Positions 38,417-59,170 of a stretch of 64,000 bases of DNA are shown here, piece after piece (position 1 is the stretch's first letter; each line of letters opens with the position of its first letter). Under the pieces are notes generated by a model. The model did no database searches and had not been told where the DNA came from. It saw only the letters and a list, made by a program, of their open reading frames with translations. The DNA comes from an uncultured Dehalococcoidales bacterium (GTDB lineage: Bacteria > Chloroflexota > Dehalococcoidia > GIF9 > UBA5629). The stretch spans positions 3,475 to 67,474 of the forward strand of contig CAYTIC010000004.1 of assembly GCA_964437795.1 (NCBI GenBank), written 5' to 3'. The position numbers were made by a program, and so were the translations under genes.

Positions 38417-38479
38417 ATACGTCCTCCCTGATCTATATTCCAATGTAGCTAAACACGCATAACAAAAATGTGATCTTTC

Positions 38480-39775
38480 TTATTTCTCGGCCAATAGATA
38501 CTCGTGTTTGACCTTATCCATGTCAGCAATATAAGGCCTGGAAGCCATGAAATAGCACAGGCCGCCCAGGACGCCGCCCAGGGTGGCGATTATCAGTGCA
38601 GTGCCCAGCGCTTGCGCGTCCTGCCCCAGCGCGTTGGAGATGGCGCCGACCAGGTAAGGGCTCCAGCCGCCGCCGAACACGTACATGAAGAAGATCATGG
38701 CGCCCCATACCAGACCTTTCTGGGCTACCGGGGCGACATCCTGCGCCATAGCCATGATGCAGGGGATCGCCATCACGTTTAAAATGCCATAAGTAACGAT
38801 CAAGATCATGCCCATCGGCCCCTTTAACTGTAAAAACAGGGCTGCAGCAAGGAAAAAGGCGCTGAGTATAATGGTGATCGCCGGCACATAGAGCCTGCCC
38901 CTGGGATTTTTCCTGAACCACAGGTCCGCCAGGAATCCGCCCAGCGGCGAACCGATAATGGCAGCCAGGACTATGGGAACAAGTATGCTGTTGGCGGCCT
39001 GCACGTCCACCCCCCAGGCACGTCCGATATAAGCCGGCGACCAGAAGAGGAAGGACATCGACATAATGTTGGCCAGGCCGTAGCCGACGAAGGTCCAGAC
39101 CAGGGTGGGGATTTTAAACAGCCCGACTATTGATCGGCCGAAATCCACCTTAGCACCGGGCGTCTGGTCTGCTTCCACGGTCTTGTAATCTTTCATAAAG
39201 AAGGCCATTACTGCTAGGGCGATGCCCGGTATGGCGAAGATAAAGAACGGCGCCTGCCATCCGTACTGCTTGGCTACAATGCCTCCTGCAAGTGAACCCA
39301 GCGCTATTCCCAGCGGCACCGCCGCGTTGAAGACGCCCATGGCTATGCCGCGCGCCTTTTTGGAGTAAGCTGCGCCGATCATGGCCGCTCCGCCCGGCAC
39401 AAATCCGGCTTCACCCACTCCGACAAGACTGCGAGGGATCAGGAAGCTCCAGAAGTTCCAGGCAAATCCATTGGCGGCCGTGAACATGCTCCAGAGCAGC
39501 GCCATTATGCCGACAGCCTTGCGCCTGCTCCAGCGGTCTATCAGATAGGAAATGGGAAAAGAGAAGACCGCGATGCTCAAAAGGAATACCGTCCCGAGGA
39601 TACCCATCTCACTGTCATTAAGCCCCAGGGCGGCTTTCATGGGCTCTACAACGGCGGCCACGACCTGCCGGTCCATGAAGTTGACCATCAGGAGGAGAGT
39701 ACAGATTATTAGAATATATAGTTTTCCTCCCGCTCCGGCCTTATACTCTTTGGGCGCGCCTCTATCTGTCGACAC
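38480..39775 (-). CDS. MFS transporter (paralog; GTG start)
   Basis: AAGGAGGTG RBS; N-terminus aligns with MFS 6229. Confidence 0.8.
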   Translation of the reverse strand: MSTDRGAPKEYKAGAGGKLYILIICTLLLMVNFMDRQVVAAVVEPMKAALGLNDSEMGILGTVFLLSIAVFSFPISYLIDRWSRRKAVGIMALLWSMFTAANGFAWNFWSFLIPRSLVGVGEAGFVPGGAAMIGAAYSKKARGIAMGVFNAAVPLGIALGSLAGGIVAKQYGWQAPFFIFAIPGIALAVMAFFMKDYKTVEADQTPGAKVDFGRSIVGLFKIPTLVWTFVGYGLANIMSMSFLFWSPAYIGRAWGVDVQAANSILVPIVLAAIIGSPLGGFLADLWFRKNPRGRLYVPAITIILSAFFLAAALFLQLKGPMGMILIVTYGILNVMAIPCIMAMAQDVAPVAQKGLVWGAMIFFMYVFGGGWSPYLVGAISNALGQDAQALGTALIIATLGGVLGGLCYFMASRPYIADMDKVKHEYLLAEK

Positions 39776-39832: not shown

Positions 39833-41191
39833 TTACCAGTCCAGGCCTTTGGATTTGCGGACTTTCCTGTAATGGTCCATGGTCTGTTCGAAGGCCTCTG
39901 CCCTTGCCAGTACCTCCTGGGGATTGAAGACGCGCTTGTCGATGATATCGCCCTCGACCCACAGGCTTGGAACGTCCAATTTCTTGTGGAGGAAATCTTG
40001 TATTGGTCTCAGATTGGAACTGGCTGCACGGCAGGAGATGAGCGGGTGCAGGAAAAAGCCATCGGCACGGTATCCCCTGGCATAATTCAGATAGCACGCT
40101 ACGATGGGATTATTGATGCCGTTCTTCCTGGCATGCTGATGTATATTGAATACGAAATTACGAGAGAGGCGTGCCAGCTTCTCCACTGGATCGCTGATCC
40201 TGCTCAAGTCCGGCGGTTTGGGAGCGTGATAGCCGTAACCCTCGAAGACGAAATTCCAGCCTTTTTCGGCCAGGGCGTCGAAGAACCTGAGGCTGTGCCA
40301 GGGAGGAAGCTCGGCGAAGATCAACCGATATCTTTCGGGATAGTTGATAGCCGCTTCTTTGTTTTTTATCCTCTCCTGTATCTCGGTCAGCATGTCCTGG
40401 TACAGATTGAGCGCTACCTTCATATCGCCGGCGAAGAAAAGCGACGGCGGCATGCTGCTCCAGAAGTCCGTGCTGTGCATGGGCCCGGGTACGGCCTTGC
40501 GGGCCTCGCTGATCAGGGAAACGGTTTCGTGGATCTGAATTGCCAGGCCGATAAGCTCTTCGAACCTGTTCCAGTCCATCTTTTTCTTGAAAAGTTTCTC
40601 CAGGAAAGAGATGTAATCGTTGAGCTCTTTAACCAGAAATTTCACCTGGTACCCTTCGAGATCCTCCTCCGAGCCCTCGGCAGTTCCCATCACCGGCATC
40701 TCAAGGCACCATTGCGGGGCGTCGAAGTACCTGGCCAGCGCCTGAAACCACTTAAAGCGCGCATCGCAAAAGATGCCCGAGCCGAGCAATAGCGATGGCC
40801 TGGCCATGCCGCCCAGCGGGGCATCGGGGGGTATCTTGCCGCCGTTTTCCTTCATCATGCGGTAGGAATAGCCGATCGTGGCCCTGCCGTATCCGCACAT
40901 ATGTGTGGGGAAGCCGTCCGAATCCGAGGCATCGAGGAACGGCTCGGCCGTGCCGGAAGCCGCCAGCAGCGTTGCGTAATTCTCAGGATAGATTATGTTG
41001 AGGTCCATGGCCTTGAGGGGTATATCGCCTTCGAATATAGTGAGCATGGACCATACGGTCGGTTTGCCCTCTTTGCTGGCCTGGAGCGTATTAACATAGT
41101 CCTGCTGTACCAGGTTGCGCAGCGGGTACATGCTCTTCAGCCGGTTTATGGCCCTCTTACCGGTTTTAACCGTAGTTTCTGGTTCACTCAT
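39833..41191 (-). CDS. HGD-D family subunit (benzoyl-CoA reductase B/C / 2-hydroxyacyl-CoA dehydratase component), extra paralog
   Basis: About 80-90% identical to ORF 46697-48058, including identical DNA stretches. Confidence 0.8.
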   Translation of the reverse strand: MSEPETTVKTGKRAINRLKSMYPLRNLVQQDYVNTLQASKEGKPTVWSMLTIFEGDIPLKAMDLNIIYPENYATLLAASGTAEPFLDASDSDGFPTHMCGYGRATIGYSYRMMKENGGKIPPDAPLGGMARPSLLLGSGIFCDARFKWFQALARYFDAPQWCLEMPVMGTAEGSEEDLEGYQVKFLVKELNDYISFLEKLFKKKMDWNRFEELIGLAIQIHETVSLISEARKAVPGPMHSTDFWSSMPPSLFFAGDMKVALNLYQDMLTEIQERIKNKEAAINYPERYRLIFAELPPWHSLRFFDALAEKGWNFVFEGYGYHAPKPPDLSRISDPVEKLARLSRNFVFNIHQHARKNGINNPIVACYLNYARGYRADGFFLHPLISCRAASSNLRPIQDFLHKKLDVPSLWVEGDIIDKRVFNPQEVLARAEAFEQTMDHYRKVRKSKGLDW

Positions 41192-41298
41192 AAAATACAC
41201 TCCCTGCGGAGAAAAGAATTCTCCAGGCGAGAAAGCTGCTGCTCACAGCGCGCAGTGAATATAAAAGCGGATAAAAGACGTAGCTTCTATATCGGCTG

Positions 41299-42858
41299 CT
41301 ATATTATTCTGTTATCTTTGCCCTCCCAGTATTTTTCCTTGACCAGGCGGCGTAATATCTTGCCTGTGGGAGTCATGGGCAGCTCTGTGACGAAGTCCAC
41401 CGTGCGCGGACGTTTATAGCCGGCCAGCTTTCCCTTGGTGAACTCGACGATCTCTTCCTGTGTAGCGCGCATCCCGTCCTTCAGCAGGACCACCGCCTTG
41501 ACCGACTCACCCCAGAATTCATCCGGTACGCCGACGATGGCGACCTCTCTGACGGAAGGATGTGTATAAATGACGTTCTCAACTTCAGTTGGGTAGATGT
41601 TCTCACCGCCGGAGATTATCATGTCGTTTTTACGGTCTACCAGGTACAGGTAATTTTCCTCATCGACATATCCCATATCGCCTACAGCACACCATTCGCC
41701 GCGGAAGGCGGCCTTGGTGGCCTGGGGGTTCTTTAAATACTCTTTAAAAATGTTAATGCCGCGGGTATATATCTCACCTATCTCCCTGGCTGCCATCTCC
41801 TTTCCTTCGGGGTCCAGGATCTTGATCTGCTTTCCGAAAACGGCCTGCCCCACCGATTTCATCTTCCTGATCTGGTCCTCGGGACGCAAAGCAGTTACCA
41901 CCCCCGTCTCTGTGGCGCCGTAGCCTTCGTAAAGCTTGGCGTTCTTAAAAAAGGACAGTATCTCGGTCTTGGTTTTGGCCGATATCGGCGCAGAGGAGGA
42001 GAGCAGAGTTGTCATACTCGAGACATCGTATTTGTTGCGTACCTCTTCGGGTAAAGCCAGGATAATGTTGTACATAGTCGGCACCATGCTGGAGATATTC
42101 ACCTTATACTTATCGATTATCTGCAGGATCTCCTCGCCGTTGAATCCGCGCAGGTGATATATGTGGATGGTCATACCGCTGAGGAACGAGGCCATGACAT
42201 TATTGATGGAATTTGAATGGAAGGTGGGCATGACGATAAGGTTGACCATATATGAGGTTACGAATTCAATATTCATTACCACTGCAGTCTCAACGCCCGT
42301 TTTGTGCAGGGTGACCGCCCCTTTTGGGAAGCCGGTTGTGCCTGATGTATAGCCGATGCACAGGATGTCCTCCGGAACGATTTTAACATCGGGCTCTTCC
42401 GCGGAGCCTTCTTTTACCAGGTCCTGATAAAGGCCGCCCGCATCGCGGAATTTTTTACTCCCCACTACCCAGTATTTATCAACCGGTATTTGTTTGATAT
42501 CCTTAGCCGCTATTTCCATGGTCGGGATGAATTCTTCTCCCAGTATCATGGCGCAGGCATCGGAGTTCTCGACGACAAACTTGATCTCCGGCGCCTGGAA
42601 GCGCCAGTTCACGGGAACCATGATAATACCGGTTTTGGAGCAGGCCATAATTAACTCGACGAACTGATAGCAGTTCATGAGCAATATCCCCAGCCTGTCT
42701 CCCTTCTTTAATCCGCTGGCAAGCAGATTGTTGGCAATGCGGTTAACCCGGCGGTTGAATTCCTCGTATGTAAAAGAGGCATCGTCACCGACGATAGCAT
42801 TGCGCTTGGGATACCTGTTGACACTGTTGAGCAGAAGTTCGCCTACTACCAGATTCAT
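41299..42858 (-). CDS. AMP-dependent acyl-/aryl-CoA ligase
   Basis: YTSGTTGFPKG AMP-binding motif; AGGAGGAGG RBS. Confidence 0.85.
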   Translation of the reverse strand: MNLVVGELLLNSVNRYPKRNAIVGDDASFTYEEFNRRVNRIANNLLASGLKKGDRLGILLMNCYQFVELIMACSKTGIIMVPVNWRFQAPEIKFVVENSDACAMILGEEFIPTMEIAAKDIKQIPVDKYWVVGSKKFRDAGGLYQDLVKEGSAEEPDVKIVPEDILCIGYTSGTTGFPKGAVTLHKTGVETAVVMNIEFVTSYMVNLIVMPTFHSNSINNVMASFLSGMTIHIYHLRGFNGEEILQIIDKYKVNISSMVPTMYNIILALPEEVRNKYDVSSMTTLLSSSAPISAKTKTEILSFFKNAKLYEGYGATETGVVTALRPEDQIRKMKSVGQAVFGKQIKILDPEGKEMAAREIGEIYTRGINIFKEYLKNPQATKAAFRGEWCAVGDMGYVDEENYLYLVDRKNDMIISGGENIYPTEVENVIYTHPSVREVAIVGVPDEFWGESVKAVVLLKDGMRATQEEIVEFTKGKLAGYKRPRTVDFVTELPMTPTGKILRRLVKEKYWEGKDNRII

Positions 42859-42926
42859 ATTTGTCCTCCTCCTAAATTGTGTGAATAAAATGATCGGAAT
42901 TTGAGCCGGATTTCGCGTCGCCGATG

Positions 42927-43490
42927 TTATTTCTGTTTTTTACTATCAGTCGATTCATCAAAATCGGTGATTACTTGTATAGTGCTCTCTGTCCACTCCA
43001 ATAAAGCTTCGTACTGTGCAAGGACCCTGTCCACAACCAGCGTCCAGTAAAGCTTATCCAACGGTGCTGCCAATCCCCACAGATCTGATTCAATGGCGGG
43101 CTTGGCCATTGACTTATATTTCTCAATCTCGCCTTTCAATTTCTTAGAATATTTCTTAATGTTGTTAATCATGTCTTTTTTTGGTGCGCGGCTTCCATAC
43201 CATAGCTTTAATAGAAGTGTTTCACGCGGGACAACAAATTCAGGAGGCTCTTTGAGCCATCTCGTCAATTCCGTTTTACCCTTATCGGTGATGGTAAATA
43301 CGTTTTTGTATGGAAGCTTCTCCTGGTCGACCCTTTCACATTCGATTAATCCTTCCTCAGTCAGCATGTTCAATTTGCGATAAATCTGACTCTGGGAGGG
43401 CCGCAGGGGTTCGAAAAACATTTTTGATAAATCGTAACCTGTTTTCGGCCCGTAACTTAAAAATCCCAGTAGACCGTATTTCAATGACAT
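42927..43490 (-). CDS. PadR family transcriptional regulator (with C-terminal extension)
   Basis: N-terminal wHTH typical of PadR (GLLGFLSYGPKTGYDLSK…). Confidence 0.8.
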   Translation of the reverse strand: MSLKYGLLGFLSYGPKTGYDLSKMFFEPLRPSQSQIYRKLNMLTEEGLIECERVDQEKLPYKNVFTITDKGKTELTRWLKEPPEFVVPRETLLLKLWYGSRAPKKDMINNIKKYSKKLKGEIEKYKSMAKPAIESDLWGLAAPLDKLYWTLVVDRVLAQYEALLEWTESTIQVITDFDESTDSKKQK

Positions 43491-43756
43491 AACAATAAGC
43501 CCCTATAACTAACTCATTTATTAGCGAATGGCATCCGCCCAGGGGGATATATGCCCAGGTCAATATACGCCGGGGCATAAGATAACATATGGTTGAAATG
43601 CTTGTCAACCCCAATTATTTCGAAATAAAAGGGTGATTAAGAGAGGTGTTAATCAGGTGCTTGTCATGAATATGGAATGGAGCATCCCGTTCATAGTTGG
43701 GACAAACTACATATTGAGAGGAAAGAAAAGTTCATGGAAAATGGGCGTGTCCGGTA

Positions 43757-44536
43757 TCAGCTGGAATGGTTTTTTGCGATAACTGCCGCTCCCAGTGCGG
43801 CCATGAGGCGTGGGTTGTCGGGCACCAGGGCTTTGACGGCGAGCTTTTCTTCGATGGCCTGCACCAGGCCGATATCGAGCGCCCCGCCGCCGATGACGGC
43901 AAAATCCTTCTCCAGGGCAACACCGCGTGACATGCCGCTGATCTTATCGGCGATAGAACGATGTATGCCGGACAGAATGTCCTCGGGTTTATCGCCCTGA
44001 GAGATGCGGGTGATGACCTCGGTTTCCAGGAACACCGTGCATGAGGTGGAGAAGCTGGAAGGCCTGGTAGACTTTAGCGAGAGCGGCCCGATCTCATCGA
44101 TGCCGATCTGCAGTATGCGGGCCACGACCTGCAGCAGGCGGGCGCTGCCGGTGGCGCATATCTCGGAGACATTGAAGTTAATTACGTGCCCTTCGCCGTC
44201 CATGGTAATCACCTGGCTGCCCTGTCCGCCGATATCGATGATTGTGCGAACAGTGGGGAAAGTCAGGTTGACGCCCCGGGCATCGCAGATGATCACGCCG
44301 TGATAGCTGTCGGCGTTGGCGTTTCTCCCTCCAATGCCGGTAGCTGCGCTGGCTGTAATGGCGGAAGGTTGAAGGCCGGCCCGTTTGAGGGCTTCAGCTT
44401 TGACGGCCGCAGATGTCGTGGCATAGTTGGTGCCGGAGGGTATCACAATAGAACCCACGATGTTCTTCCGGCCGTCTATTATGACGGCTTTGCTGGCGGC
44501 CGCACCGATGTCTATGCCGAGGTAGAATTCAGTCAT
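43757..44536 (-). CDS. BcrAD/BadFG/HgdC-family ATPase (activator/electron-transfer subunit)
   Basis: Acetate/sugar-kinase ASKHA fold (LGIDIGAAASKAV…). Confidence 0.8.
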   Translation of the reverse strand: MTEFYLGIDIGAAASKAVIIDGRKNIVGSIVIPSGTNYATTSAAVKAEALKRAGLQPSAITASAATGIGGRNANADSYHGVIICDARGVNLTFPTVRTIIDIGGQGSQVITMDGEGHVINFNVSEICATGSARLLQVVARILQIGIDEIGPLSLKSTRPSSFSTSCTVFLETEVITRISQGDKPEDILSGIHRSIADKISGMSRGVALEKDFAVIGGGALDIGLVQAIEEKLAVKALVPDNPRLMAALGAAVIAKNHSS

Positions 44537-44592
44537 TTTCAATATCCGTCGAGTCTGTCATTTTGCTTATGTGCAGCATAAAAGGTTGCGCC

Positions 44593-45474
44593 TTACGCGG
44601 CCGGCTTTTTCTCCGTGAATTCAATATATGCTTCGCTGAGCTGTTTTTTCTCCATTTTGTAGCGGCCGTCCTGCACCAGTTTAAAGGCCTCGTCTCTTGC
44701 CAGTATGGCGGCGCCCAGGGCGCCGGTGATGAGCGGTTCCTCCGGCACAAGCACCGGCATGCCCAGCACGGTCTCCATGGCTTTGACCATGCCAGCATTC
44801 TTGGCCACCCCACCTGTAAAGACTACGGGCGGCTCGACTTTGAGCTGCCGGGCCAGCTTGACCACACGGGTGGTAACGGCTATGTAGACGCCGGCCAGTA
44901 TATCCGGCAGCGGCTGACCCTCGGAGAGACGCGAGATGATCTCCTGCTGGGCGAAGATAGTGCAAAGGCTGTTTATCTTAACGGGCGTATCGCTCTGCAA
45001 CGATACCTGCCCCATCTCGTTAAGCCCCAGCCCCAGCGTCTCAGCAGCCACCTCCAGGAACCTGCCGGTGCCGGCTGCGCACTTATCGTTGGTAAGGAAG
45101 TCGGTCAGCCGGCCTCCCTTGATCTTGAGTACCTTGGCGTCCTGGCCGCCGATGTCGATGGCGGTGCGAACGTCGGGGAAAAGCGAGGAAACTCCTTTAG
45201 CGTGGCAGGTGAGCTCGGTGACCTGTTTGTCGGCGAATGGAACATTGACACGGCCGTAGCCCGTGGAGATGATATAGGCTATTTGATCGAGCGTGACACC
45301 GGATTTAATGAGCACGTCCTCCATAACCCGGTTGGCGCGCCGGCGGTGCTCGGCGCCGGTCTGGCCGACCACGTAGCCGAGCATCTGTCCTGCGGCGTCT
45401 ACCACAGCTGCCTTGGACATGGTAGAGCCGATATCGATGCCGGCGAAAAAGAGTTTAGAAGCTTCGTATTCCAT
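44593..45474 (-). CDS. BcrAD/BadFG/HgdC-family ATPase, second copy
   Basis: FAGIDIGSTMSKAAV… ASKHA fold; paired with the previous ATPase. Confidence 0.8.
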   Translation of the reverse strand: MEYEASKLFFAGIDIGSTMSKAAVVDAAGQMLGYVVGQTGAEHRRRANRVMEDVLIKSGVTLDQIAYIISTGYGRVNVPFADKQVTELTCHAKGVSSLFPDVRTAIDIGGQDAKVLKIKGGRLTDFLTNDKCAAGTGRFLEVAAETLGLGLNEMGQVSLQSDTPVKINSLCTIFAQQEIISRLSEGQPLPDILAGVYIAVTTRVVKLARQLKVEPPVVFTGGVAKNAGMVKAMETVLGMPVLVPEEPLITGALGAAILARDEAFKLVQDGRYKMEKKQLSEAYIEFTEKKPAA

Positions 45475-45493
45475 GCGGGACTGCTGCTTTACC

Positions 45494-46666
45494 TCAGCCC
45501 AGGGTCTCCACGAAGGCCTCTACCCTCGTCTTGATAGGGGCCAGCGACCGCTCGCTGTAGTCATGCTCGATGTATATGCTGGGTATGCCCAGAGTATCAA
45601 GGTAGTGCCGCAGGTTGGGCACCTCGTATCCGTGCGTATCGCAGTATTTGACGCTCTGCAGTATGGCCCCGTTCACGTGCCAGTCGGTAATGGCCTTCTT
45701 GATATAGTTAAACCTGCTGTCGAGGTCCTTATCATAGTTCCTGGCAGTCTCATGGTGTTCAGTGTCACGATAGGTGCGCGGGCATTTGAGATCGACCAGG
45801 TATCTCTGTGCCAGGGCGTGCAGGTTGTAAGGGGCCTTAACGTCTGCCCAGAAGGCCCTGGTGCCGACGCAGGTGTCATCGACCACAACGCTGGCATTAG
45901 CGCTCTCTATGAGCTCGTAAAGCGACGTGTTGTCGAAAACAGGTCCCCACACCAGCAGGCGCGCCTTTTTCTTGGACGGCTTTATGCTTCGTCCCTTGAT
46001 CTCCTTGATGACGTCTTCCAGGAGCTCGTTGCCCTCATCCACGGGCAGGCTGAAAAGCGCTACCAGCACCTCGATATTTTCCATCGATGTCATGAGGGGC
46101 GGGTCTGATTTTCGCAGGTCGTAGAGCTCCCTTACAAGCTTACGTTGTTTATTGTGCAGCTCGCAGGCTTTTTTCAGCTTATCATCGGTCAGCTTTTCAC
46201 CGGCGAACTCCTCGAGGTGGCGTTTGAAGGAATTAATCTGGCCCTCGAAATAGTCGACAGCCGGCGCATGGTCGGTGTGCGGCACATCTATCAGGTGAGT
46301 GAAGGGCGCATCCTTGACATAATCACGCCACGATATGACCAGGGTCATGCCGATATCGCAGGTATGCGCTCCGACGATGCCGTCCAGGAAGTTAAATTTA
46401 CCTTTCATACCGAGGTCGATGATGCTGCGCAGGAACGGGCAGACCACCGTGGTTGATACCTGGTCGGCCGCTGTGATGGGCTCGCTCATATCACCGAAGA
46501 CGCGGAAAGGCACCATGCCCAGCGCGCTGATAATCTCGACAGGCGGGTAGAGGCAAATATAGCCGATGACCTTCTTGCCGGCCTTGCGCAGCTCGCGCAC
46601 GCGCATCCCCCTGTCCGCGTAGAGTTCGTGTGCCCTGGAAAGCCCCTTAGTTGTAGCTATTACCAT
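45494..46666 (-). CDS. HGD-D family subunit (BcrC/BadD/HgdB-like)
   Basis: HGD-D family sequence, Cys-containing. Confidence 0.8.
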   Translation of the reverse strand: MVIATTKGLSRAHELYADRGMRVRELRKAGKKVIGYICLYPPVEIISALGMVPFRVFGDMSEPITAADQVSTTVVCPFLRSIIDLGMKGKFNFLDGIVGAHTCDIGMTLVISWRDYVKDAPFTHLIDVPHTDHAPAVDYFEGQINSFKRHLEEFAGEKLTDDKLKKACELHNKQRKLVRELYDLRKSDPPLMTSMENIEVLVALFSLPVDEGNELLEDVIKEIKGRSIKPSKKKARLLVWGPVFDNTSLYELIESANASVVVDDTCVGTRAFWADVKAPYNLHALAQRYLVDLKCPRTYRDTEHHETARNYDKDLDSRFNYIKKAITDWHVNGAILQSVKYCDTHGYEVPNLRHYLDTLGIPSIYIEHDYSERSLAPIKTRVEAFVETLG

Positions 46667-46696
46667 CTCAATCTCCCGGTTTTTATTATTCTTCGT

Positions 46697-48058
46697 TTAC
46701 CAGTCCAAACCCTTCGATTTTCGAACCTTCCTGTAGTGGTCCATGGTCTGCTCGAAGGCCTCTGCCCTTGCCAGCACCTCCTGGGGATTGAAGACACGCT
46801 TGTCGATGATATCGCCCTCGACCCACAGGCTGGGTATATCCAGTGTATCCTGCTCGAAGTGCTGCACCGTCCTGAGGCTGCAGCTGGCAGCGCGGCAGGA
46901 GATGAGCGGGTGCATGAAAAAGCCATCGGCCTTAAAGCCCCGGGCTATCTTGAGGTAAGTTTCAACGACTGGATTGGAGACATTGTCCTTCTTGGCCTCG
47001 GGGAAGACATTGAACCAGAAATTGCGTGAGAAGCGCGCCAGCTTCTCGCAGGGATCGCTAATCTTGCTCAGGTCGAGCGGCCTGGTGTTGTGATAACCGA
47101 AGCTCTCGAAGACGAAATTCCATCCTTTCTCCGCCAGGTTGTCAAAAAACTTCAGGCTGTGCCAGGGAGGGAGCTCCGCGAAGATCAGGCGGTATCTTTC
47201 GGGGTAGTTGATGCCCGATTCCTTGACCTTGACGCGCTCCTGCACCTCGGCCAGCATGTCCTGGTACAGCTTGAGAGAGACGTTCATATCGCCGGCGAAA
47301 AAGAGGGCGGGCGGCATGCTGCTCCAGAAGTCCGTGCTGTGCATGGGCCCGGGGATGGCCTTGCGGGCCTCGCTGATCTGGTAGGTGGTCTCGTGTATCT
47401 TGGTGGCCAGGACGATCAACTCCTCCAGCCTGGCCCAGTCCATCTTCTTTTTCAGCAGCTTTTCCAGGAATGCGATAAAGTCCTTTATCTCTTTGGTCAG
47501 GAATTTGACCTGGTACTCTTCAAGGTCGGGCTCATTGCCTTCGAAAGTGGCCATCATGGGCATTTCGAGGCACCATTCAGGAGCATCGAAGTATCTTGCC
47601 AGCGCTTGAAACCACTTGAAACGGGCGTCGCAGATAATGCCCGATCCGAGCAGCAGCGCCGGTTTGGCCATGCCGCCCAGCGGGGCATCGGGGGGTATCT
47701 TGCCGCCGTTTTCCTTCATCATGCGGTAGGAATAGCCGATCGTGGCCCTGCCGTAGCCGCACATATGAGTGGGGAAGCCATCGGAATCCGAGGCATCCAG
47801 GAACGGCTCGGCTGCGCCGGAGGCCGCCAGCAAAGTGGCGTAGTTCTCAGGGTAAACGATATTCAGCCCCATGGCCTTGAGCGGGAGATCGCCCTCCCAG
47901 TAATTGAGCATGGACCATACGGTCGGCTTGCCCTCATTGCTGGCCTGGAGTGTATCAACGTAGTCCTGCTGCACGAGGTTGCGCAGCGGATAAACGCTCT
48001 TAAGGCGGTTAATGGCTCTTTTCTTCTCGGTCTTGGCGGGAGTTGCGGTTTCGCTCAT
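46697..48058 (-). CDS. HGD-D family subunit (BcrB/BadE/HgdA-like)
   Basis: Paralog of 39833-41191. Confidence 0.8.
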   Translation of the reverse strand: MSETATPAKTEKKRAINRLKSVYPLRNLVQQDYVDTLQASNEGKPTVWSMLNYWEGDLPLKAMGLNIVYPENYATLLAASGAAEPFLDASDSDGFPTHMCGYGRATIGYSYRMMKENGGKIPPDAPLGGMAKPALLLGSGIICDARFKWFQALARYFDAPEWCLEMPMMATFEGNEPDLEEYQVKFLTKEIKDFIAFLEKLLKKKMDWARLEELIVLATKIHETTYQISEARKAIPGPMHSTDFWSSMPPALFFAGDMNVSLKLYQDMLAEVQERVKVKESGINYPERYRLIFAELPPWHSLKFFDNLAEKGWNFVFESFGYHNTRPLDLSKISDPCEKLARFSRNFWFNVFPEAKKDNVSNPVVETYLKIARGFKADGFFMHPLISCRAASCSLRTVQHFEQDTLDIPSLWVEGDIIDKRVFNPQEVLARAEAFEQTMDHYRKVRKSKGLDW

Positions 48059-48185
48059 CTTTCACTCCTTATATGTTTTCAATGCGGAATATAAAAAGAT
48101 CGGCAGACTTAAATATTAGAATATTGCCGGTCTTAATGCAAAGACATCTGTGCACCGTTTCACTCATAGGTTAGCCGTTCCTTTC

Positions 48186-49703
48186 TCAGCTTATCTGACC
48201 GGTGTCCAGCATTTTGACCAATTCCTTTTTTAGTATCTTGCCCACAGGGCTGCGCGGCACCTGCTGCAGTATATAGACACGCCGGGGAATCTTGAAGCGC
48301 GCCAGCTTCTCGCTTAAATAATCGGTCATTTCCTTTTCGGTTAATGTGGCGCCGGGCCGCGGCACTACGATGGCTACGGGTACTTCCCCCAGCCGCACAT
48401 CCCTCTGTGGGACCAGTACTGCGTCGGCCACTGCAGGGTGCTTGTACATGATCTCCTCCACCTCGCGGGGGAAGACCTTCTCGCCTCCCACGTTGATAAG
48501 CTCCTTCTTGCGGTCGACCATGAAGAAGTAGCCGTCCTTATCGTAATATCCCATATCTCCCGTGTGCAGCCACCCTCCGCGCAGGGCCTCGGCCGTCTCC
48601 TTGGGCTTTTTATAGTAGCCTTTCATCACCAGCGGCCCCTGGATGACCAGCTCACCTACCTCCCCCGTTCCCAGCAGCTTACCCGACTCGTCCATTGCGC
48701 CCACCTTCACGCCGGGGTAGGCCAGCCCGACGCTGCCCTCCTTGTAGGTAAGGTCCGAGCGCTGCATTGTCGCCGAGGCGGAGCATTCGGTCAGGCCCCA
48801 GGCCTCGAGGATCTTGATGTTAAGCGCGCTGGAGGCGTCCTTCATGAGCTGGGCCGGCATGGCCGAAGCGCCCGAGATGCCGATGCGCAGCGACGAAAGG
48901 TTATACTTGCTGCGGTCCGGATGGTTTATCAACATGAAATACATGGCTACTACCATGGGTATGAAGGTGATCTTATGTTTCTCGATCTGCTCGAATATCT
49001 CGACGGGATTAAAGGGGTCAAGCAGTACGAAGGAGGAACCGGTCACCAGCGAGCAGAGAATCACGGTGATACCGAAGCCGTGGAAGGCCGGCACGACCAT
49101 CAGGGCGCGGTCATTGTCTCCCAGCTTGAGCAGTTTGACGATAATGTCGGCGTGGAAGAACAGGTTGGCGTGGGTCAGCATGGTGCCCTTGGGCTCGCCG
49201 GTAGTGCCCGAAGTATAGAGGATCTCGACCACATCGTCTTCCTTGCAGAGGGCTTTAAAAGGAGTGGACGGGGCCTCCGCTTCGAGCTTTGAGAACTCCA
49301 ACCCCTCGCGGTAGGCGCCGTTTACGATCAGGTGTTTGAAGAGGGGAGGCTTGTTTGCGATTTTGCTGTAGTGCTCGGCGAAGGCCGGATTTGCTACCAG
49401 CGCCACCGCATCGCTGTCACGCAGCAGATACTCCAGTTCGCGCTCCTTATAAAATATGTTGACCGGCACGGCCACTGCTCCCAGGTAGGCGCAGGCGAAA
49501 TAGGTCACGATGAACTCGGGGCAGTTGTTGAGCATGATGGCTACCTTGTCGTCGGGCTTGATGCCGAGACCGTGCAGGGAGTGTGCCAACCTCTGTGCCC
49601 TGGCCAGAAGCTGGCTGTATGTTACAGGCTGGTCCTTGAATATGAGCGCTGGTTTGTTTCCAATCTTGGAGGCTCTGGCCTCCAACATGCCGGGCAGATG
49701 CAT
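48186..49703 (-). CDS. AMP-dependent acyl-/aryl-CoA ligase
   Basis: YTSGTTGEPKG motif; AGGAGG RBS. Confidence 0.85.
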   Translation of the reverse strand: MHLPGMLEARASKIGNKPALIFKDQPVTYSQLLARAQRLAHSLHGLGIKPDDKVAIMLNNCPEFIVTYFACAYLGAVAVPVNIFYKERELEYLLRDSDAVALVANPAFAEHYSKIANKPPLFKHLIVNGAYREGLEFSKLEAEAPSTPFKALCKEDDVVEILYTSGTTGEPKGTMLTHANLFFHADIIVKLLKLGDNDRALMVVPAFHGFGITVILCSLVTGSSFVLLDPFNPVEIFEQIEKHKITFIPMVVAMYFMLINHPDRSKYNLSSLRIGISGASAMPAQLMKDASSALNIKILEAWGLTECSASATMQRSDLTYKEGSVGLAYPGVKVGAMDESGKLLGTGEVGELVIQGPLVMKGYYKKPKETAEALRGGWLHTGDMGYYDKDGYFFMVDRKKELINVGGEKVFPREVEEIMYKHPAVADAVLVPQRDVRLGEVPVAIVVPRPGATLTEKEMTDYLSEKLARFKIPRRVYILQQVPRSPVGKILKKELVKMLDTGQIS

Positions 49704-49888
49704 ATCAACCTCCTGTCTCGTTTATACGGACCAATTCACGCGGTCTTTTGCTTAATAAAAATACGATCCCCAAGGGATTTCAACCGGGGCAGTTGAGCCC
49801 GCCGTAAATGGTAAATCATCGCCAGATTAAATGTAAAGGCAGCCATTGAAACACGCATAATCATCGCCGGCCCCCCGTTAACAGATAC

Positions 49889-49916
49889 TTGACTATTGAT
49901 ACCCTTCTGTTAGAAT
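49889..49916 (+). promoter_or_regulatory. candidate promoter TTGACT-N16-TAGAAT for the downstream ligase/RdhA/phosphoesterase cluster
   Basis: -35 49889-49894, -10 49911-49916; a GACTGTCAGTC palindrome just downstream. Confidence 0.4.
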
Positions 49917-50033
49917 AAGCGACTGTCAGTCAGTTATCATCAAGATTTGTTTGGAGGGAGCCGCGGGCCAAGCAGCATTCTCACCCGATATCAAACGGGT
50001 AAATAACAGTGAATATCATAAGGAGGTGCAGGA

Positions 50034-51632
50034 ATGAACCTGGCCAACCTTGTAGTTGAAGGGATCAGGAAATTCGGGGAATACGAGTGCTGTTATTTCG
50101 AGGGGAAATGGTACACCAATGTGGAACTGGACGATATGTCCAGCCGCCTGGGCAATGCGTTGAAATCGATCGGTGTCGGCAGGGGAGACCGAGTGGTCAC
50201 GCAATTGCCGAACTGCCCGGAGATCGGGTGTACGTTCAATGCCGTATATAAGATAGGCGCCGTTGCCGTGCCTATGAATCCCATACTTCGCCCGGACCAA
50301 ATATCCCATATCTACAGGAACTGCGGCGCCGGGGTAACCATCACGACATCCGATTATCTACCCTGGATCAGGGAGGCGCAGAAAAATGCCCCGGGGCTCA
50401 AGCAGATCATTTTAGTTGACAGGGATGATGAGCCGGGCACACTCTCTTTTAAAAAGTTGCTGGAAAGCTCCAGCAGCGAGCTGAAGGTGGAGGACATGGA
50501 TGGCGAGGACCTGGCTGCGCTTATCTATACGTCCGGCACCACCGGCAATCCCAAGGGAGTTATGCACACCCACTACTCACTGTGGATCAACGCGGTGTGC
50601 TTCGCCGATTTTACCGCAATGTGCTCGCCCACAACCCTGCGTGATGTCCGCCGGGACCTCAACAAGCACACGTACAAGATCGAGGAGACCATGCAGGAAG
50701 TTACCGGACACGACCGCAACGTGCTGTTCCTGGCGGTCCTGCCGCTGTCCCACTCGTACGGGTTGTCCTTCATGAATTTCGGCAGCCTGGTCGGGGCCAG
50801 GTACGTAGTGATGAAGTGGTGGAACCCCGCGGGCGCACTCAAAATCATCGAAGATATGCGCGTAGGATATATTGCGCTGGTGCCGACCATGTACGTTCAC
50901 CTGCTTGACCAGCCCGACTTCGACAGGTATGATCTCTCATCGCTCCAGTACTGCAACTCGGGGGCCGCAGCGCTGGACACAGGCATCGCAATGAAGTGGA
51001 AGGAGAAGACGGGAGTTCATATCCATGAGGGTTGGGGCATGACGGAATCCGGCGCGACCACTTCGGGAAATCCCACCACGTGCCCACCCAAGATCGGTTC
51101 CATCGGCGTTAACATGCTCAAGTGCAACACGATGAAAGTATTCGACAACGAGGACCACGAGTTGCCGCCGGAAAGCATCGGCGAGCTGGTTATCAAGGGC
51201 CCTACGGTAATGAAGGGCTACTGGAATATGCCCGATGAAACCGCGGAGGCGCTCAAGAACGGCTGGCTGCATACCGGGGATATCGGGTACATGGATAAGG
51301 ACGGCTATTTCTATATTACCGACCGAAAAAAGGACATAATCATCCGCGGCGGGGAAAATGTATCGCCCAGAGAAGTTGAAGATGTTGTCTGTCAGCATCC
51401 CAGGGTGCTTGAAGCGGGTTGCGTGGGAATCAAGGACCGGGTATACGGGGAGGAGATAAAGGTGTTCGTCGTGCTCAGGGAGGGGGAACAGTGCAGCGAG
51501 GCAGAGATTATTGAGCATTGCAGGAAGCATTTACCCTCTTTTAAAACACCCGGCAAGGTCCAGTTCATAAGTTCGCTGCCCAAGAATATTCTGGGGAAGA
51601 TATTGAGGGCCGACCTGCGCAAGGCGGGATAG
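50034..51632 (+). CDS. AMP-dependent acyl-/aryl-CoA ligase
   Basis: YTSGTTGNPKG motif; AAGGAGGTG RBS. Confidence 0.85.
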   Translation: MNLANLVVEGIRKFGEYECCYFEGKWYTNVELDDMSSRLGNALKSIGVGRGDRVVTQLPNCPEIGCTFNAVYKIGAVAVPMNPILRPDQISHIYRNCGAGVTITTSDYLPWIREAQKNAPGLKQIILVDRDDEPGTLSFKKLLESSSSELKVEDMDGEDLAALIYTSGTTGNPKGVMHTHYSLWINAVCFADFTAMCSPTTLRDVRRDLNKHTYKIEETMQEVTGHDRNVLFLAVLPLSHSYGLSFMNFGSLVGARYVVMKWWNPAGALKIIEDMRVGYIALVPTMYVHLLDQPDFDRYDLSSLQYCNSGAAALDTGIAMKWKEKTGVHIHEGWGMTESGATTSGNPTTCPPKIGSIGVNMLKCNTMKVFDNEDHELPPESIGELVIKGPTVMKGYWNMPDETAEALKNGWLHTGDIGYMDKDGYFYITDRKKDIIIRGGENVSPREVEDVVCQHPRVLEAGCVGIKDRVYGEEIKVFVVLREGEQCSEAEIIEHCRKHLPSFKTPGKVQFISSLPKNILGKILRADLRKAG

Positions 51633-54988: not shown

Positions 54989-55027
54989 ATTTCTATATAG
55001 AGGAAGATTAGTTCAGGAGGATGATGA

Positions 55028-55579: not shown

Positions 55580-55631
55580 AGCGGCATTGTCCATGTGAAC
55601 AGGTAACAAATTGTTGAAGGGGAATGAGATC

Positions 55632-56465: not shown

Positions 56466-56502
56466 ACCTCGATACTGCCTGTTTTGATTTAAGGGGTAAA
56501 AC

Positions 56503-57639: not shown

Positions 57640-57684
57640 TACGTGCGATACTGAATTAGATATACTTCTATAGGAGTAGTAGTC

Positions 57685-59076: not shown

Positions 59077-59170
59077 GCGGTGTCCCTCGCCTGAAGAGTG
59101 ATAAGATATATGTCAGAAATATCCTGAAATAGCTTTTTAATTATTTTAAGCAGGAGGATAGGGAGAGAAA

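What the first reader, a model, noticed from the sequence alone, without database searches (positions are those of the whole stretch)
39833..51632. Four-subunit Bcr/Hgd-type ATP-dependent radical enzyme with three aryl/acyl-CoA ligases and a PadR regulator
Two HGD-D-family subunits (46697-48058, 45494-46666) and two ASKHA ATPases (44593-45474, 43757-44536) form the complement of class I benzoyl-CoA reductase (BcrCBAD/BadDEFG) or of a 2-hydroxyacyl-CoA dehydratase with a duplicated activator. They are flanked by three AMP-dependent CoA ligases and a PadR regulator, and by hbd, crotonases and an SCP-x thiolase nearby. This is consistent with anaerobic dearomatisation or dehydration of CoA-activated aromatic or alicyclic acids; the substrate is not deducible from sequence.
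Basis: partly seen in the sequence, partly recalled or inferred. Interest (0 to 1): 0.65.

Follow-up and report, generated by a model that had tools for sequence, protein, structure and literature searches.

The report
Uncharacterised ATP-driven radical enzyme with spare catalytic subunit
A Dehalococcoidia operon encodes an unstudied relative of benzoyl-CoA reductase and 2-hydroxyacyl-CoA dehydratase that has a predicted double iron-sulfur cluster, two ATPases and two swappable catalytic subunits, each with its own CoA ligase; public annotation calls it benzoyl-CoA reductase, which the sequence does not support.

Summary
The genes are real and sit at the stated coordinates.

The set is alpha1, beta, two unlike ATPases, PadR and three CoA ligases. 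Transporters and beta-oxidation genes follow. There is no acyl-CoA dehydrogenase in the 64 kb.

The system belongs to the BCR/HAD radical-enzyme superfamily but to none of its characterised families. No subunit reaches an NCBIfam equivalog cut-off.

Beta keeps all six cysteines of the [8Fe-9S] double cubane of BzdN and DCCP, in 35 of 35 orthologues, and groups with BzdN (100% bootstrap). Dehydratase HadC and reductases BcrC and MbdN have only three.

Alpha is 19-24% identical to each of BzdO, BcrB, MbdO and HadB. It sits in its own clade and has Arg where BzdO has His131.

Relatives are almost all Dehalococcoidia MAGs. Several carry more alpha than beta genes.

Best reading (about 0.5): an ATP-coupled low-potential reductase of CoA-activated, probably phenylpropanoid-derived, acids with exchangeable specificity subunits. 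The main rival (about 0.3) is a radical dehydratase that feeds beta-oxidation. The substrate is unknown.

The parts
48186..49703 (-). ligA, an AMP-forming acyl-CoA ligase. It is the first gene of the operon and always sits upstream of alpha1-type genes.
   Evidence: PF00501 and PF13193. NF004837, 510 bits. Best solved-structure matches are feruloyl-CoA synthetase 8wev and 4-coumarate-CoA ligase at about 288 bits; benzoate-CoA ligase scores 173 bits. ligA precedes alpha1 in L002, L008-L010, L029, L030 and L037.
46697..48058 (-). alpha1, the large catalytic HGD-D subunit. A [4Fe-4S] cluster with an open coordination site is predicted (Cys100, Cys143, Cys388; Glu71, Tyr102, Arg146).
   Evidence: PF06050. 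21-24% identical to BzdO, BcrB, MbdO and HadB. Ligand and catalytic columns. AlphaFold model pLDDT 90, with TM 0.78-0.80 to MbdO, HadB and BzdO.
45494..46666 (-). beta, the small HGD-D subunit. A [8Fe-9S] double-cubane carrier is predicted (Cys38, 76, 103, 266, 295, 342).
   Evidence: All six Cys align with those of BzdN and DCCP. They are invariant in 35 orthologues. Beta groups with BzdN at 100% bootstrap. Best NCBIfam hit is double_cubane at 208 bits, below the 350 cut-off.
44593..45474 (-). ATP1, the canonical ASKHA electron-activating ATPase.
   Evidence: PF01869; TIGR00241, 267 bits. MbdQ 3e-71 and HadI 2e-70. GIDIGSTMSKA is near-invariant (26 of 29, the rest conservative); DIGGQD is in 29 of 29. 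Both cluster-bridging Cys are present.
43757..44542 (-). ATP2, a divergent partner ATPase. The gene caller starts it at 44536.
   Evidence: PF01869. 35% identical to ATP1. The P-loop is degenerate (GAAASK, GSVGGK and others) and DIGGQG replaces DIGGQD. Both bridging Cys are kept.
43491..43756 (-). 266-bp AT-richer intergenic region holding a promoter-like site and the palindrome GGTTGAAATGCTTGTCAACC. It is a possible internal promoter and PadR operator.
   Evidence: TTGACA-18-TATCTT at 43608-43579 on the minus strand, and an inverted repeat at 43591-43610. This is a consensus match only; function was not tested.
42927..43490 (-). PadR-family transcriptional regulator.
   Evidence: PF03551 and PF10400. 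It is conserved upstream of ligB-alpha2 in L002-L004, L008, L028, L029 and L049.
41299..42858 (-). ligB, a second acyl-CoA ligase that is always paired with alpha2-type genes.
   Evidence: PF00501 and PF13193. 32% identical to ligA. Best solved-structure matches are FadD13, feruloyl-CoA synthetase and 4CL. Pairing with alpha2.
39833..41191 (-). alpha2, a second catalytic HGD-D subunit with no beta or ATPase genes of its own.
   Evidence: PF06050. 80% identical to alpha1. It has the same catalytic residues but T-I-F instead of N-Y-W at residues 52-54, which align with BzdO S44-A45-W46.
38480..39775 (-). MFS organic-anion transporter.
   Evidence: PF07690. Weak similarity to aromatic-acid:H+ symporters and MhpT.
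37967..38443 (-). DUF35/ChsH2-type OB-fold partner of the thiolase.
   Evidence: PF01796 and PF12172. Weak BbsA hit.
36732..37925 (-). SCP-x / lipid-transfer-type thiolase.
   Evidence: PF22691; NF004715, 483 bits, above its cut-off.
35368..36663 (-). Second MFS transporter.
   Evidence: PF07690.
34094..35344 (-). HemN-like radical SAM protein. It recurs next to the alpha-beta-ATPase core; its role is unknown.
   Evidence: PF04055; NF006385, 410 bits. This gene and/or the 341-aa barrel protein lies within 4 kb downstream of ATP2 in 13 of 25 distinct loci.
33024..34049 (-). 341-aa protein with a predicted AttH / kievitone-hydratase / 25-phosphosteroid-lyase-like double-barrel fold. It also recurs next to the core.
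   Evidence: No Pfam hit for the window protein; relatives hit PF14249 weakly. Model pLDDT 85; Foldseek matches 2ich, 7a0q and 9fzn.
32082..32951 (-). Enoyl-CoA hydratase, the last gene of the operon.
   Evidence: PF00378; NF006109, 383 bits.
50034..51632 (+). ligC, a divergently transcribed third acyl-CoA ligase.
   Evidence: PF00501 and PF13193. 29-33% identical to ligA and ligB. Syntenic in L002, L008, L029 and L047.

Best explanation

Proposed mechanism:
1. Organic acids enter through the MFS transporters. Dedicated ligases turn them into CoA thioesters: ligA serves alpha1 and ligB serves alpha2.
2. ATP1 and ATP2 form an asymmetric heterodimer with a bridging [4Fe-4S] cluster. It uses ATP hydrolysis to push a ferredoxin-derived electron to very low potential.
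3. The electron lands on a [8Fe-9S] double cubane in beta, which can store two electrons.
4. It then moves to the open-site [4Fe-4S] cluster of whichever alpha subunit (alpha1 or alpha2) is bound to beta. There the acyl-CoA is attacked by radical chemistry.

I judge a two-electron, ATP-stoichiometric reduction the most likely chemistry. The likeliest substrate is a substituted aroyl-CoA ring produced when the enoyl-CoA hydratase, the 3-hydroxyacyl-CoA dehydrogenase (inside the operon in relatives, 11 kb outside it here) and the DUF35/SCP-x thiolase shorten a phenylpropenoyl-CoA.

Shown: gene content, family membership, the cysteine patterns, the phylogenetic placement, and the surplus of alpha genes over beta genes.

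Inferred: cofactor identity, the heterodimer, sharing of beta by both alphas, the direction of the chemistry, and the substrate class.
For: Superfamily and architecture:
- Pfam and NCBIfam hits.
- Solved relatives are BzdNO, MbdONQP, HadBC/HadI and DCCP.

Beta carries all six double-cubane ligand cysteines. These are defined for DCCP (PMC7317905) and BzdN (PMC11971306).
- Three-way alignment.
- Invariant in 31 + 4 orthologues, down to 46% identity.
- Arg55, Arg270 and His345 match BzdN Arg53, Arg267 and His330.
- Beta groups with BzdN at 100% NJ bootstrap, away from HadC, BcrC and MbdN.
- Fuchs et al. interpret the double cubane as a two-electron store and state that dehydratases have lost it.

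Two distinct ATPases are conserved in 28-29 loci. One is canonical and one has a degenerate P-loop, as in the MbdQ/MbdP pair. Both keep the bridging Cys.

Alpha keeps the three Cys, Glu and Tyr of the catalytic site.

Modularity:
- Alpha2 lacks its own beta and ATPases.
- L056 has alpha-alpha-beta-alpha.
- L005 has a solitary alpha.
- Each alpha type has its own ligase.
- Paralogues are invariant at catalytic residues but hypervariable at the tripeptide that aligns with BzdO S44-A45-W46, which lines the benzoyl pocket.

Aromatic or phenylpropanoid context:
- The ligases are closest to feruloyl-CoA synthetase and 4CL.
- Hydratase, dehydrogenase and DUF35-thiolase are present but there is no acyl-CoA dehydrogenase in 64 kb.
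- A PadR regulator is present.
- An O-demethylase-like cassette is inserted in L003.
- Genes resembling 4-hydroxybenzoyl-CoA reductase (molybdopterin, 2Fe-2S and FAD subunits) sit next to a solitary alpha in L005.
Against: - No biochemical data exist for any member of the clade.
- Alpha's best pairwise and HMM scores are to the dehydratase subunit HadB (111 bits, against 61-64 for BzdO and BcrB).
- BzdO His131 is not conserved (it is Arg), so the BzdO proton and hydrogen-atom relay cannot simply be transferred.
- The double cubane is not universal in reductases: BcrC and MbdN have three Cys. Its link to reduction rests on BzdN and DCCP only.
- No separate ferredoxin gene lies next to the core. 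No Dch/Had/Oah family was among the listed matches for the operon genes scanned.
- A family III CoA-transferase sits beside the alphas in L056, as in the Fld and Had dehydratase systems.
- The hydratase-dehydrogenase-thiolase set without an acyl-CoA dehydrogenase fits an upstream dehydratase equally well.
- Stoichiometric ATP use is costly for strict anaerobes.
- Trees are neighbour-joining only, lack Hgd, Fld and Lcd sequences, and are weakly supported at deep nodes.
Confidence: 0.5

Rival explanations
1. It is a radical 2-hydroxyacyl-CoA dehydratase working in the oxidative direction. Imported 2-hydroxy acids, such as aryl-lactates or 2-hydroxy fatty acids, would be ligated to CoA and dehydrated to 2-enoyl-CoA by alpha-beta. 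A single ATP-energised electron would be recycled. The product would then be hydrated, oxidised and thiolytically cleaved by the ECH, 3HCDH and DUF35-thiolase. That would explain why no acyl-CoA dehydrogenase is needed.
For: - Alpha's highest scores are to HadB (111 bits; 1e-27; 119 bits).
- ATP2's best solved match is the dehydratase activator HadI.
- There is no acyl-CoA dehydrogenase in the window.
- A family III CoA-transferase lies next to three alphas in L056, as with FldA and HadA.
- Catalytic ATP use suits energy-limited strict anaerobes.
Against: - Beta has the six-Cys double cubane that Fuchs et al. say the dehydratases have lost. HadC, the dehydratase small subunit compared here, has three.
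- Beta clusters with BzdN, not HadC.
- Two different ATPases are conserved, whereas the characterised dehydratase activators with solved structures (HgdC, HadI) are described as single-gene products (plus established knowledge).
- HadB and HadC equivalog scores are 111/750 and 166/700.
- Alpha does not group with HadB in any tree.
Confidence: 0.28
2. It is a genuine benzoyl-CoA reductase, a Bzd/Bcr orthologue that dearomatises benzoyl-CoA itself. This is what the JGI/KEGG labels and sediment metagenome papers imply.
For: - Several homologues are labelled 'benzoyl-CoA reductase subunit B' by JGI.
- Class I BCR has been reported in marine Dehalococcoidia (PMC5736913; PMC10116835).
- The subunit complement is BCR-like and beta is BzdN-like.
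Against: - TIGR03190, TIGR03191, TIGR03192, TIGR02260 and TIGR02263 scores are 59-187 bits against cut-offs of 380-487.
- Alpha is 19-24% identical to BzdO, BcrB and MbdO and lies outside their clade.
- His131 is Arg, and Gln274 and Tyr298 are replaced.
- The ligases are not benzoate-CoA-ligase-like.
- No Dch/Had/Oah family was among the listed matches for the operon genes scanned, and no separate ferredoxin gene lies next to the core.
- Multiple alpha paralogues with different pocket residues argue for several non-identical substrates.
Confidence: 0.07
3. It performs another low-potential radical reaction on non-aromatic or unusual CoA esters. Examples are reductive dehydroxylation or dehalogenation, or a reaction on isoprenoid, steroid-like or lipid acids. 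This would be done in concert with the co-located HemN-like radical SAM protein and the AttH/kievitone-hydratase-like protein.
For: - The radical SAM gene and/or the barrel protein lie within 4 kb of the core in 13 of 25 distinct loci.
- The barrel protein's fold relatives act on isoprenoid double bonds or tertiary alcohols.
- Three SCP2 lipid-carrier genes, Fe-ADH and AOR lie next to the core in L057.
- SCP-x thiolases handle 2-branched substrates (established knowledge).
- Arg146, invariant near the open Fe site, could bind an extra polar group.
Against: - The barrel protein is not exclusive to this system; in Syntrophaceae it sits beside an alkylsulfatase.
- Half of the loci lack both genes nearby.
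- Nothing ties either protein mechanistically to the HGD-D enzyme.
Confidence: 0.15

Closest known systems
Bzd-type class I benzoyl-CoA reductase BzdNOPQ (Aromatoleum sp. CIB; BzdNO structures 8S02, 8S1T, 8S2R; Fuchs et al. 2025, PMC11971306)
   Same: - Two HGD-D subunits plus two ASKHA ATPases.
- The small subunit has the same six Cys as the [8Fe-9S] carrier BzdN, plus Arg53, Arg267 and His330 equivalents. It is 29% identical and is sister to BzdN at 100% bootstrap.
- The large subunit has the 3-Cys, Glu and Tyr set of BzdO.
   Different: - The large subunit is only 22-24% identical and lies outside the BzdO/BcrB/MbdO group.
- His131 is Arg, Gln274 is Leu and Tyr298 is Trp.
- Equivalog cut-offs are missed by a wide margin.
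- No ferredoxin gene lies next to the core, and no Dch/Had/Oah family was among the listed matches for the neighbours scanned.
- The ligases are not benzoate-type.
- Extra alpha subunits are present.
3-Methylbenzoyl-CoA reductase MbdONQP (Thauera chlorobenzoica; 9G87, 9GAI)
   Same: - The large-small-ATPase-ATPase gene order matches the O-N-Q-P naming. This rests on my knowledge of the mbd cluster.
- ATP1's best solved match is MbdQ (3e-71).
- The ATPase pair is asymmetric, with one divergent member.
- The best Foldseek match of the alpha model is MbdO, TM 0.80.
   Different: - MbdN has only three of the six Cys.
- Alpha is 19-21% identical to MbdO.
- ATP2 is much closer to HadI and MbdQ than to MbdP.
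(R)-2-Hydroxyisocaproyl-CoA dehydratase HadBC with activator HadI (Clostridioides difficile; 3O3M, 4EHT)
   Same: - It gives the highest sequence score for alpha (111 bits).
- It shares the YPEN and SC(R/K) motifs.
- The catalytic subunit has a 3-Cys cluster with an open site.
   Different: - HadC has a 3-Cys [4Fe-5S] cluster, not six Cys.
- It has a single homodimeric activator.
- It works in reductive amino-acid fermentation.
- Scores are far below the HadB and HadC cut-offs of 750 and 700.
Double-cubane cluster protein DCCP with its reductase DCCP-R (Carboxydothermus hydrogenoformans; 6ENO, 7YYL)
   Same: - Beta's top NCBIfam hit is NF040772 at 208 bits.
- The six ligand Cys are conserved.
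- Reduction is ATP-dependent, by an ASKHA ATPase.
   Different: - DCCP is a homodimer with a seventh Cys, acts on small molecules and has one reductase gene.
- Here beta is paired with a 3-Cys alpha and with CoA ligases.
- The score is below the 350 cut-off.

Membership tests
BCR/HAD radical-enzyme superfamily (HGD-D subunits plus ASKHA electron-activating ATPases) | HGD-D (PF06050) catalytic and partner subunits, and BcrAD_BadFG (PF01869) ATPases that keep the two Cys forming the subunit-bridging [4Fe-4S] cluster | tested here: met
   Three HGD-D proteins score 140-284 bits and two ATPases score 151-208 bits. The bridging-Cys motifs are conserved in 28-29 orthologues of each ATPase.
Class I benzoyl-CoA reductase, Bzd type (BzdNOPQ) | Small subunit with the six-Cys [8Fe-9S] double-cubane site | tested here: met
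   Cys38, 76, 103, 266, 295 and 342 align with the BzdN and DCCP ligands and are present in 35 of 35 orthologues. The cofactor itself was not observed.
Class I benzoyl-CoA reductase, Bzd type (BzdNOPQ) | Subunits reach the curated equivalog scores (TIGR03190 BzdN, TIGR03191 BzdO, TIGR03192 BzdQ) | tested here: not met
   Scores against cut-offs: 179.6 vs 453.8; 63.8 and 60.9 vs 448.6; 186.5 vs 380.2.
Class I benzoyl-CoA reductase, Bzd type (BzdNOPQ) | BzdO active-site set: three Cys and Glu65 plus His131, with Tyr97, Tyr298 and Gln274 on the thioester | tested here: not met
   The Cys, Glu and Tyr97 equivalents are present, but they are universal in the superfamily. His131 is Arg (116 of 120 sequences), Tyr298 is Trp and Gln274 is Leu. 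MbdO and BcrB also lack His131, so this is a Bzd-specific feature.
Class I benzoyl-CoA reductase (any type) | Catalytic subunit groups phylogenetically with BzdO, BcrB and MbdO | tested here: not met
   Alpha forms its own clade. With 119 cluster representatives added, it lies in a 53-member clade that holds no characterised protein. The trees are NJ only and deep support is weak.
Class I benzoyl-CoA reductase (any type) | Pathway context: a benzoate-CoA-ligase-type ligase, a dedicated ferredoxin, and dienoyl-CoA hydratase / Had / Oah | tested here: not met
   The ligases resemble feruloyl/4CL/FadD types. Among the operon genes scanned against NCBIfam, none of TIGR03189, TIGR03200 or TIGR03201 was among the listed matches. 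No separate ferredoxin gene was found next to the core. Only the window and 10-kb flanks of relatives were examined, not whole genomes.
Class I benzoyl-CoA reductase (any type) | ATP-stoichiometric reduction of an aroyl-CoA to a dienoyl-CoA | not testable with these tools
   Needs an enzyme assay.
2-Hydroxyacyl-CoA dehydratases (Hgd/Had/Fld/Lcd) | Small subunit with a 3-Cys [4Fe-5S] cluster and no double cubane | tested here: not met
   HadC has three of the six Cys; the window's beta has all six.
2-Hydroxyacyl-CoA dehydratases (Hgd/Had/Fld/Lcd) | A single homodimeric activator ATPase | tested here: not met
   Two ATPase genes, 35% identical to each other, are conserved in 28-29 loci.
2-Hydroxyacyl-CoA dehydratases (Hgd/Had/Fld/Lcd) | Equivalog-level similarity (NF052455 HadB, NF052456 HadC), or grouping with dehydratase subunits | tested here: not met
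   111 vs 750 and 166 vs 700. In some searches neither subunit groups with HadB or HadC.
Double-cubane cluster proteins (DCCP) | Homodimeric protein with the 7-Cys motif that reaches NF040772 | tested here: not met
   Beta has six of the seven Cys, scores 208 vs 350, and is encoded next to a 3-Cys alpha partner.

The most novel reading that the evidence does not exclude
One double-cubane beta subunit and one ATPase pair act as a shared ATP-driven 'electron injector'. Several interchangeable catalytic alpha subunits dock onto it, and each is supplied by its own CoA ligase. This would give peat and sediment Dehalococcoidia a plug-in platform for dearomatising or otherwise reducing a range of lignin-derived acyl-CoAs. 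Such an arrangement has not been described for any BCR/HAD enzyme. It might also involve the co-located HemN-like radical SAM protein and the AttH-like protein.
Probability: 0.3. Interest if true: 0.75.

Novelty: new variant of a known kind. Interest (0 to 1): 0.55.

Why it matters
Dehalococcoidia are abundant in peat, lake and marine sediments. Homologues of these genes are labelled 'benzoyl-CoA reductase' by JGI, and bcr genes are used to argue that Dehalococcoidia degrade aromatic compounds. This analysis shows that the clade is not an orthologue of any characterised BCR or dehydratase, so claims that rest on these homologues need care.

If the predicted cofactors are real, this would be only the third protein family with a biological [8Fe-9S] double cubane, and the second with a defined catabolic setting.

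Sharing one electron-activation module among several specificity subunits would be a new organisational principle for ATP-dependent radical enzymes. It would also give a route to new Birch-type or ketyl-radical biocatalysts.

Tried and rejected
- **Fold comparison of the alpha model.** MbdO, HadB and BzdO match equally well (TM 0.78-0.80), so fold does not separate reductase from dehydratase.
- **BzdO His131 as a reductase marker.** Rejected, because MbdO and BcrB have Phe there.
- **The three Cys, Glu and Tyr of alpha.** Universal in the superfamily, so uninformative.
- **The window's own contig in public assemblies.** Only 4.5-kb and 8.5-kb Logan fragments turned up. The source organism is therefore inferred from 94-95% relatives, which are Dehalococcoidia MAGs.
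- **A paper on the MbdONQP structures.** Not in the library.
- **Hgd, Fld and Lcd reference sequences.** Not obtainable. The references I could use were BzdN/O, BcrB/C and MbdN/O from the Source Data of PMC11971306, and HadB, HadC and DCCP fragments copied from HMMER alignments.
- **Tree building.** Only neighbour-joining was possible, as no maximum-likelihood program is installed.
- **Gene conversion between alpha1 and alpha2.** Identity is patchy, with a longest identical run of 91 nt. No clear conclusion.
- **The 341-aa barrel protein outside Dehalococcoidia.** It is not linked to HGD-D genes there, so it cannot be called an obligate component.
- **Pocket-region substitutions between alpha1 and alpha2.** They are not enriched overall (0.12 against 0.21 per site). 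Only the 52-54 tripeptide stands out.

Full report
**Observation.**
- HGD-D proteins at 46697-48058 (alpha1, 453 aa) and 45494-46666 (beta, 390 aa).
- BcrAD_BadFG ATPases at 44593-45474 (ATP1) and 43757-44542 (ATP2).
- PadR at 42927-43490.
- AMP-forming ligases at 48186-49703 (ligA), 41299-42858 (ligB) and 50034-51632 (ligC, plus strand).

This alpha2 is 80% identical to alpha1.

All genes from ligA down to an enoyl-CoA hydratase at 32082-32951 lie on the minus strand. Gaps are 19-127 bp, apart from one of 266 bp before padR. That gap contains a promoter-like site and a 20-bp palindrome.

Downstream of alpha2 lie an MFS transporter, a DUF35/SCP-x thiolase pair, a second MFS, a HemN-like radical SAM protein, a 341-aa protein with no Pfam hit, and the hydratase. 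hbd (20839-21738) is 11 kb outside the operon here. In 91-95% relatives it sits inside the operon, between the MFS and DUF35 genes.

No acyl-CoA dehydrogenase was found among the window ORFs scanned against Pfam. These cover most of the 64 kb; a few short ORFs were not scanned.

**Origin.** The closest homologues (94-95%) are from Dehalococcoidia MAGs. All 42 loci recovered from GTDB species representatives are Dehalococcoidia or Chloroflexota from peat, fen and lake or river sediment. More distant alpha-beta pairs (about 54% identity) occur in Syntrophales and other bacteria, without adjacent ATPases.

**Family placement.** None of the subunits reaches a curated equivalog score.

| Subunit | NCBIfam model scores in bits (cut-off) |
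|---|---|
| alpha1 | HadB 111 (750), BzdO 64 (449), BcrB 59 (487) |
| beta | double_cubane 208 (350), BzdN 180 (454), HadC 166 (700), BcrC 139 (421) |
| ATP1 | BzdQ 187 (380) |

Against solved structures:
- alpha is nearest HadB (1e-27), then MbdO and BzdO;
- beta is nearest BzdN (2e-49), then HadC and DCCP;
- ATP1 matches MbdQ and HadI about equally;
- ATP2 is nearest HadI.

Fuchs et al. 2025 (PMC11971306) showed the following.
- BzdO carries a 3-Cys [4Fe-4S]-OH2 cluster.
- BzdN carries a six-Cys [8Fe-9S] double cubane.
- Dehydratases have lost the double cubane; HadC holds [4Fe-5S].

The DCCP review defines the six ligand Cys within a 7-Cys motif (PMC7317905).

I used full BzdN/O, BcrB/C and MbdN/O sequences from that paper's Source Data, and HadB, HadC and DCCP fragments from the HMMER alignments.
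- The window's beta has Cys at all six ligand columns (38, 76, 103, 266, 295, 342), as do BzdN and DCCP.
- HadC, MbdN and BcrC keep only three of the six ligand positions.
- The six are invariant in 35 orthologues, down to 46% identity and including the Syntrophales pairs.
- BzdN's second-shell Arg53, Arg267 and His330 are also matched.
- In NJ trees beta is sister to BzdN (100% bootstrap), apart from the HadC/(BcrC, MbdN) group.

**Alpha.** It keeps the three cluster Cys (100, 143, 388), the Glu (71) and the thioester Tyr (102). These are identical in BzdO, BcrB, MbdO and HadB, so they do not discriminate.

Where BzdO has His131, the family has Arg (116 of 120 sequences). Gln274 and Tyr298 are Leu and Trp.

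Alpha is 19-24% identical to each reference and forms its own clade. With 119 representatives from a 1.84-billion-protein library added, it sits in a 53-member clade that holds no characterised protein. Deep nodes are weak.

A confident AlphaFold model (pLDDT 90) matches MbdO, HadB and BzdO equally well.

**ATPases.** ATP1 and ATP2 are 35% identical, and both keep the two Cys that bridge the shared [4Fe-4S] cluster. ATP1 keeps DIGGQD in all 29 orthologues, and its GIDIGSTMSKA loop is near-invariant (26 of 29, the rest conservative changes). ATP2 has a degenerate P-loop and DIGGQG. That asymmetry recalls the MbdQ/MbdP pair. The alpha-beta-ATP1-ATP2 order is conserved in about 28 loci.

**Modularity.**
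- Alpha2 has no beta or ATPase genes of its own, either here or in its orthologous cassettes. Those cassettes read PadR-ligB-alpha2-MFS-(hbd)-DUF35-thiolase-MFS.
- ligA always precedes alpha1-type genes and ligB always precedes alpha2-type genes. The ligases are only 29-33% identical to each other.
- One contig carries TRAP transporter, family III CoA-transferase, then alpha-alpha-beta-alpha.
- Another genome has a solitary alpha beside TetR, MFS and genes resembling 4-hydroxybenzoyl-CoA reductase.
- Several MAGs also have a second complete module.
- Across paralogues the catalytic residues are invariant. The tripeptide aligned with BzdO Ser44-Ala45-Trp46, which lines the benzoyl pocket, varies: NYW, TIF, VKW, NNW, SSW, TWW, NFF.

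I infer that several alpha subunits with different specificities use the same beta/ATPase electron-delivery module. This is an inference from gene content, not a demonstrated interaction.

**Pathway context.**
- ligA and ligB are closest to feruloyl-CoA synthetase, 4-coumarate-CoA ligase and FadD-type enzymes. Benzoate-CoA ligase scores far lower.
- The hydratase, dehydrogenase and thiolase set has no acyl-CoA dehydrogenase. That suits substrates that already are, or become, 2-enoyl-CoAs.
- One relative has a corrinoid protein and two URO-D methyltransferases inserted in the cluster. This looks like an O-demethylase.
- PadR regulators classically respond to phenolic acids (established knowledge).

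Together these point, weakly, to phenylpropanoid-type acids.

Two pathways fit the context equally well.
1. The HGD-D enzyme reduces the aroyl-CoA that side-chain beta-oxidation releases.
2. It dehydrates a 2-hydroxyacyl-CoA, such as an aryl-lactyl-CoA, to the enoyl-CoA that enters beta-oxidation.

**Weighing.** Enzyme-intrinsic evidence favours a two-electron reductase: the double cubane in beta, beta's affinity to BzdN, and a conserved heterodimeric ATPase. Several points keep the dehydratase alive: alpha's slightly higher similarity to HadB, the CoA-transferase next to the alphas in L056, the absence of a ferredoxin gene and of listed Dch/Had/Oah matches nearby, and energetic cost. I give 0.5 to a reductase, 0.28 to a dehydratase, 0.07 to a true benzoyl-CoA reductase, and 0.15 to other radical chemistry.

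**Conserved neighbours of unknown role.** The HemN-like radical SAM protein scores 410 bits on NF006385. The 341-aa protein has a predicted AttH / kievitone-hydratase / 25-phosphosteroid-lyase-like double barrel. One or both lie within 4 kb downstream of ATP2 in 13 of 25 distinct loci.

The window's layout looks as if the PadR-ligB-alpha2 cassette was inserted between ATP2 and these two genes.

Outside Dehalococcoidia the barrel protein sits beside an alkylsulfatase, so it is not an obligate partner.

**Verdict.** Filing the locus as BcrCBAD/BadDEFG or as an Hgd-type dehydratase is not justified.

It is a new variant of a known kind: an uncharacterised clade, largely from Dehalococcoidia, with a Bzd-like predicted cofactor set, an Arg-containing active site and surplus catalytic subunits. 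JGI labels several homologues 'benzoyl-CoA reductase', and bcr genes are cited as evidence of aromatic degradation by Dehalococcoidia. For this clade the label is not supported.

Noticed in passing
window 33024-34049 (-); L012, L014, L021, L025, L033, L040, L045: A 341-aa protein with no Pfam hit is predicted (pLDDT 85) to adopt the AttH / kievitone hydratase / 25-phosphosteroid lyase / pericyclase double-barrel fold. It often sits directly after ATP2. In a Syntrophaceae genome its homologue is next to an alkylsulfatase instead.
   Followed up: partly
window 34094-35344 (-): A HemN-like radical SAM protein (NF006385, 410 bits) recurs within 4 kb of the alpha-beta-ATPase core in many loci. Its role is unknown; it could act in cofactor maturation or in substrate chemistry.
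   Followed up: partly
window 43579-43610 (-), in the 266-bp gap between ATP2 and padR: A promoter-like site, TTGACA-18-TATCTT, overlaps a perfect 6+6 palindrome, GGTTGA-N8-TCAACC. This is a candidate PadR operator and internal promoter for the padR-ligB-alpha2 unit.
   Followed up: no
window 51677-52681 (+): A 334-aa protein has no Pfam hit. Its Cys-rich C-terminus is weakly similar to QueG and reductive-dehalogenase Fe-S domains. It co-occurs with ligC and ligA in L030 and L047.
   Followed up: no
window 24400-32071: A cluster of five FHA-domain proteins abuts the operon end, including an FHA + Trans_reg_C regulator at 31385-32071. A near-identical contig (L053) adds PP2C phosphatase and Ser/Thr kinase genes.
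   Followed up: no
window 2225-4598 (-): Two tandem family III CoA-transferases sit next to an M20 peptidase, an MFS transporter and an SDR. The same transferase family lies directly upstream of three alpha paralogues in L056.
   Followed up: no
window 53396-62599 (+): A run of hydrolase-like and DUF genes: two alkaline-phosphatase-superfamily (Phosphodiest/sulfatase-like) proteins, a phosphotriesterase-family protein, DUF169, a DUF1214/DUF1254 pair and DUF3795. Relatives carry an alkylsulfatase in the same neighbourhood (L002).
   Followed up: no
L003 1904-7368: In a relative, a corrinoid-binding protein, an unknown 374-aa protein, an MFS transporter and two URO-D-type methyltransferases are inserted between ATP2 and padR. 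This looks like an O-demethylase set.
   Followed up: no
L056 8559-13938: One contig encodes alpha-alpha-beta-alpha (58-64% identical to alpha1). The block is preceded by a TRAP transporter and a family III CoA-transferase instead of ligases and MFS transporters.
   Followed up: partly
L057 4171-8720: Three small SCP2-domain proteins, an Fe-ADH and an aldehyde:ferredoxin oxidoreductase lie just upstream of an alpha-beta-ATP1-ATP2 module. This hints at hydrophobic alcohol- or aldehyde-derived substrates and a local source of reduced ferredoxin.
   Followed up: no
window 44563-45534 (+) and 39872-40792 (+): Long antisense ORFs (323 and 306 aa) overlap ATP1 and alpha2. They are shadow ORFs in GC-rich coding sequence, not genes.
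   Followed up: no
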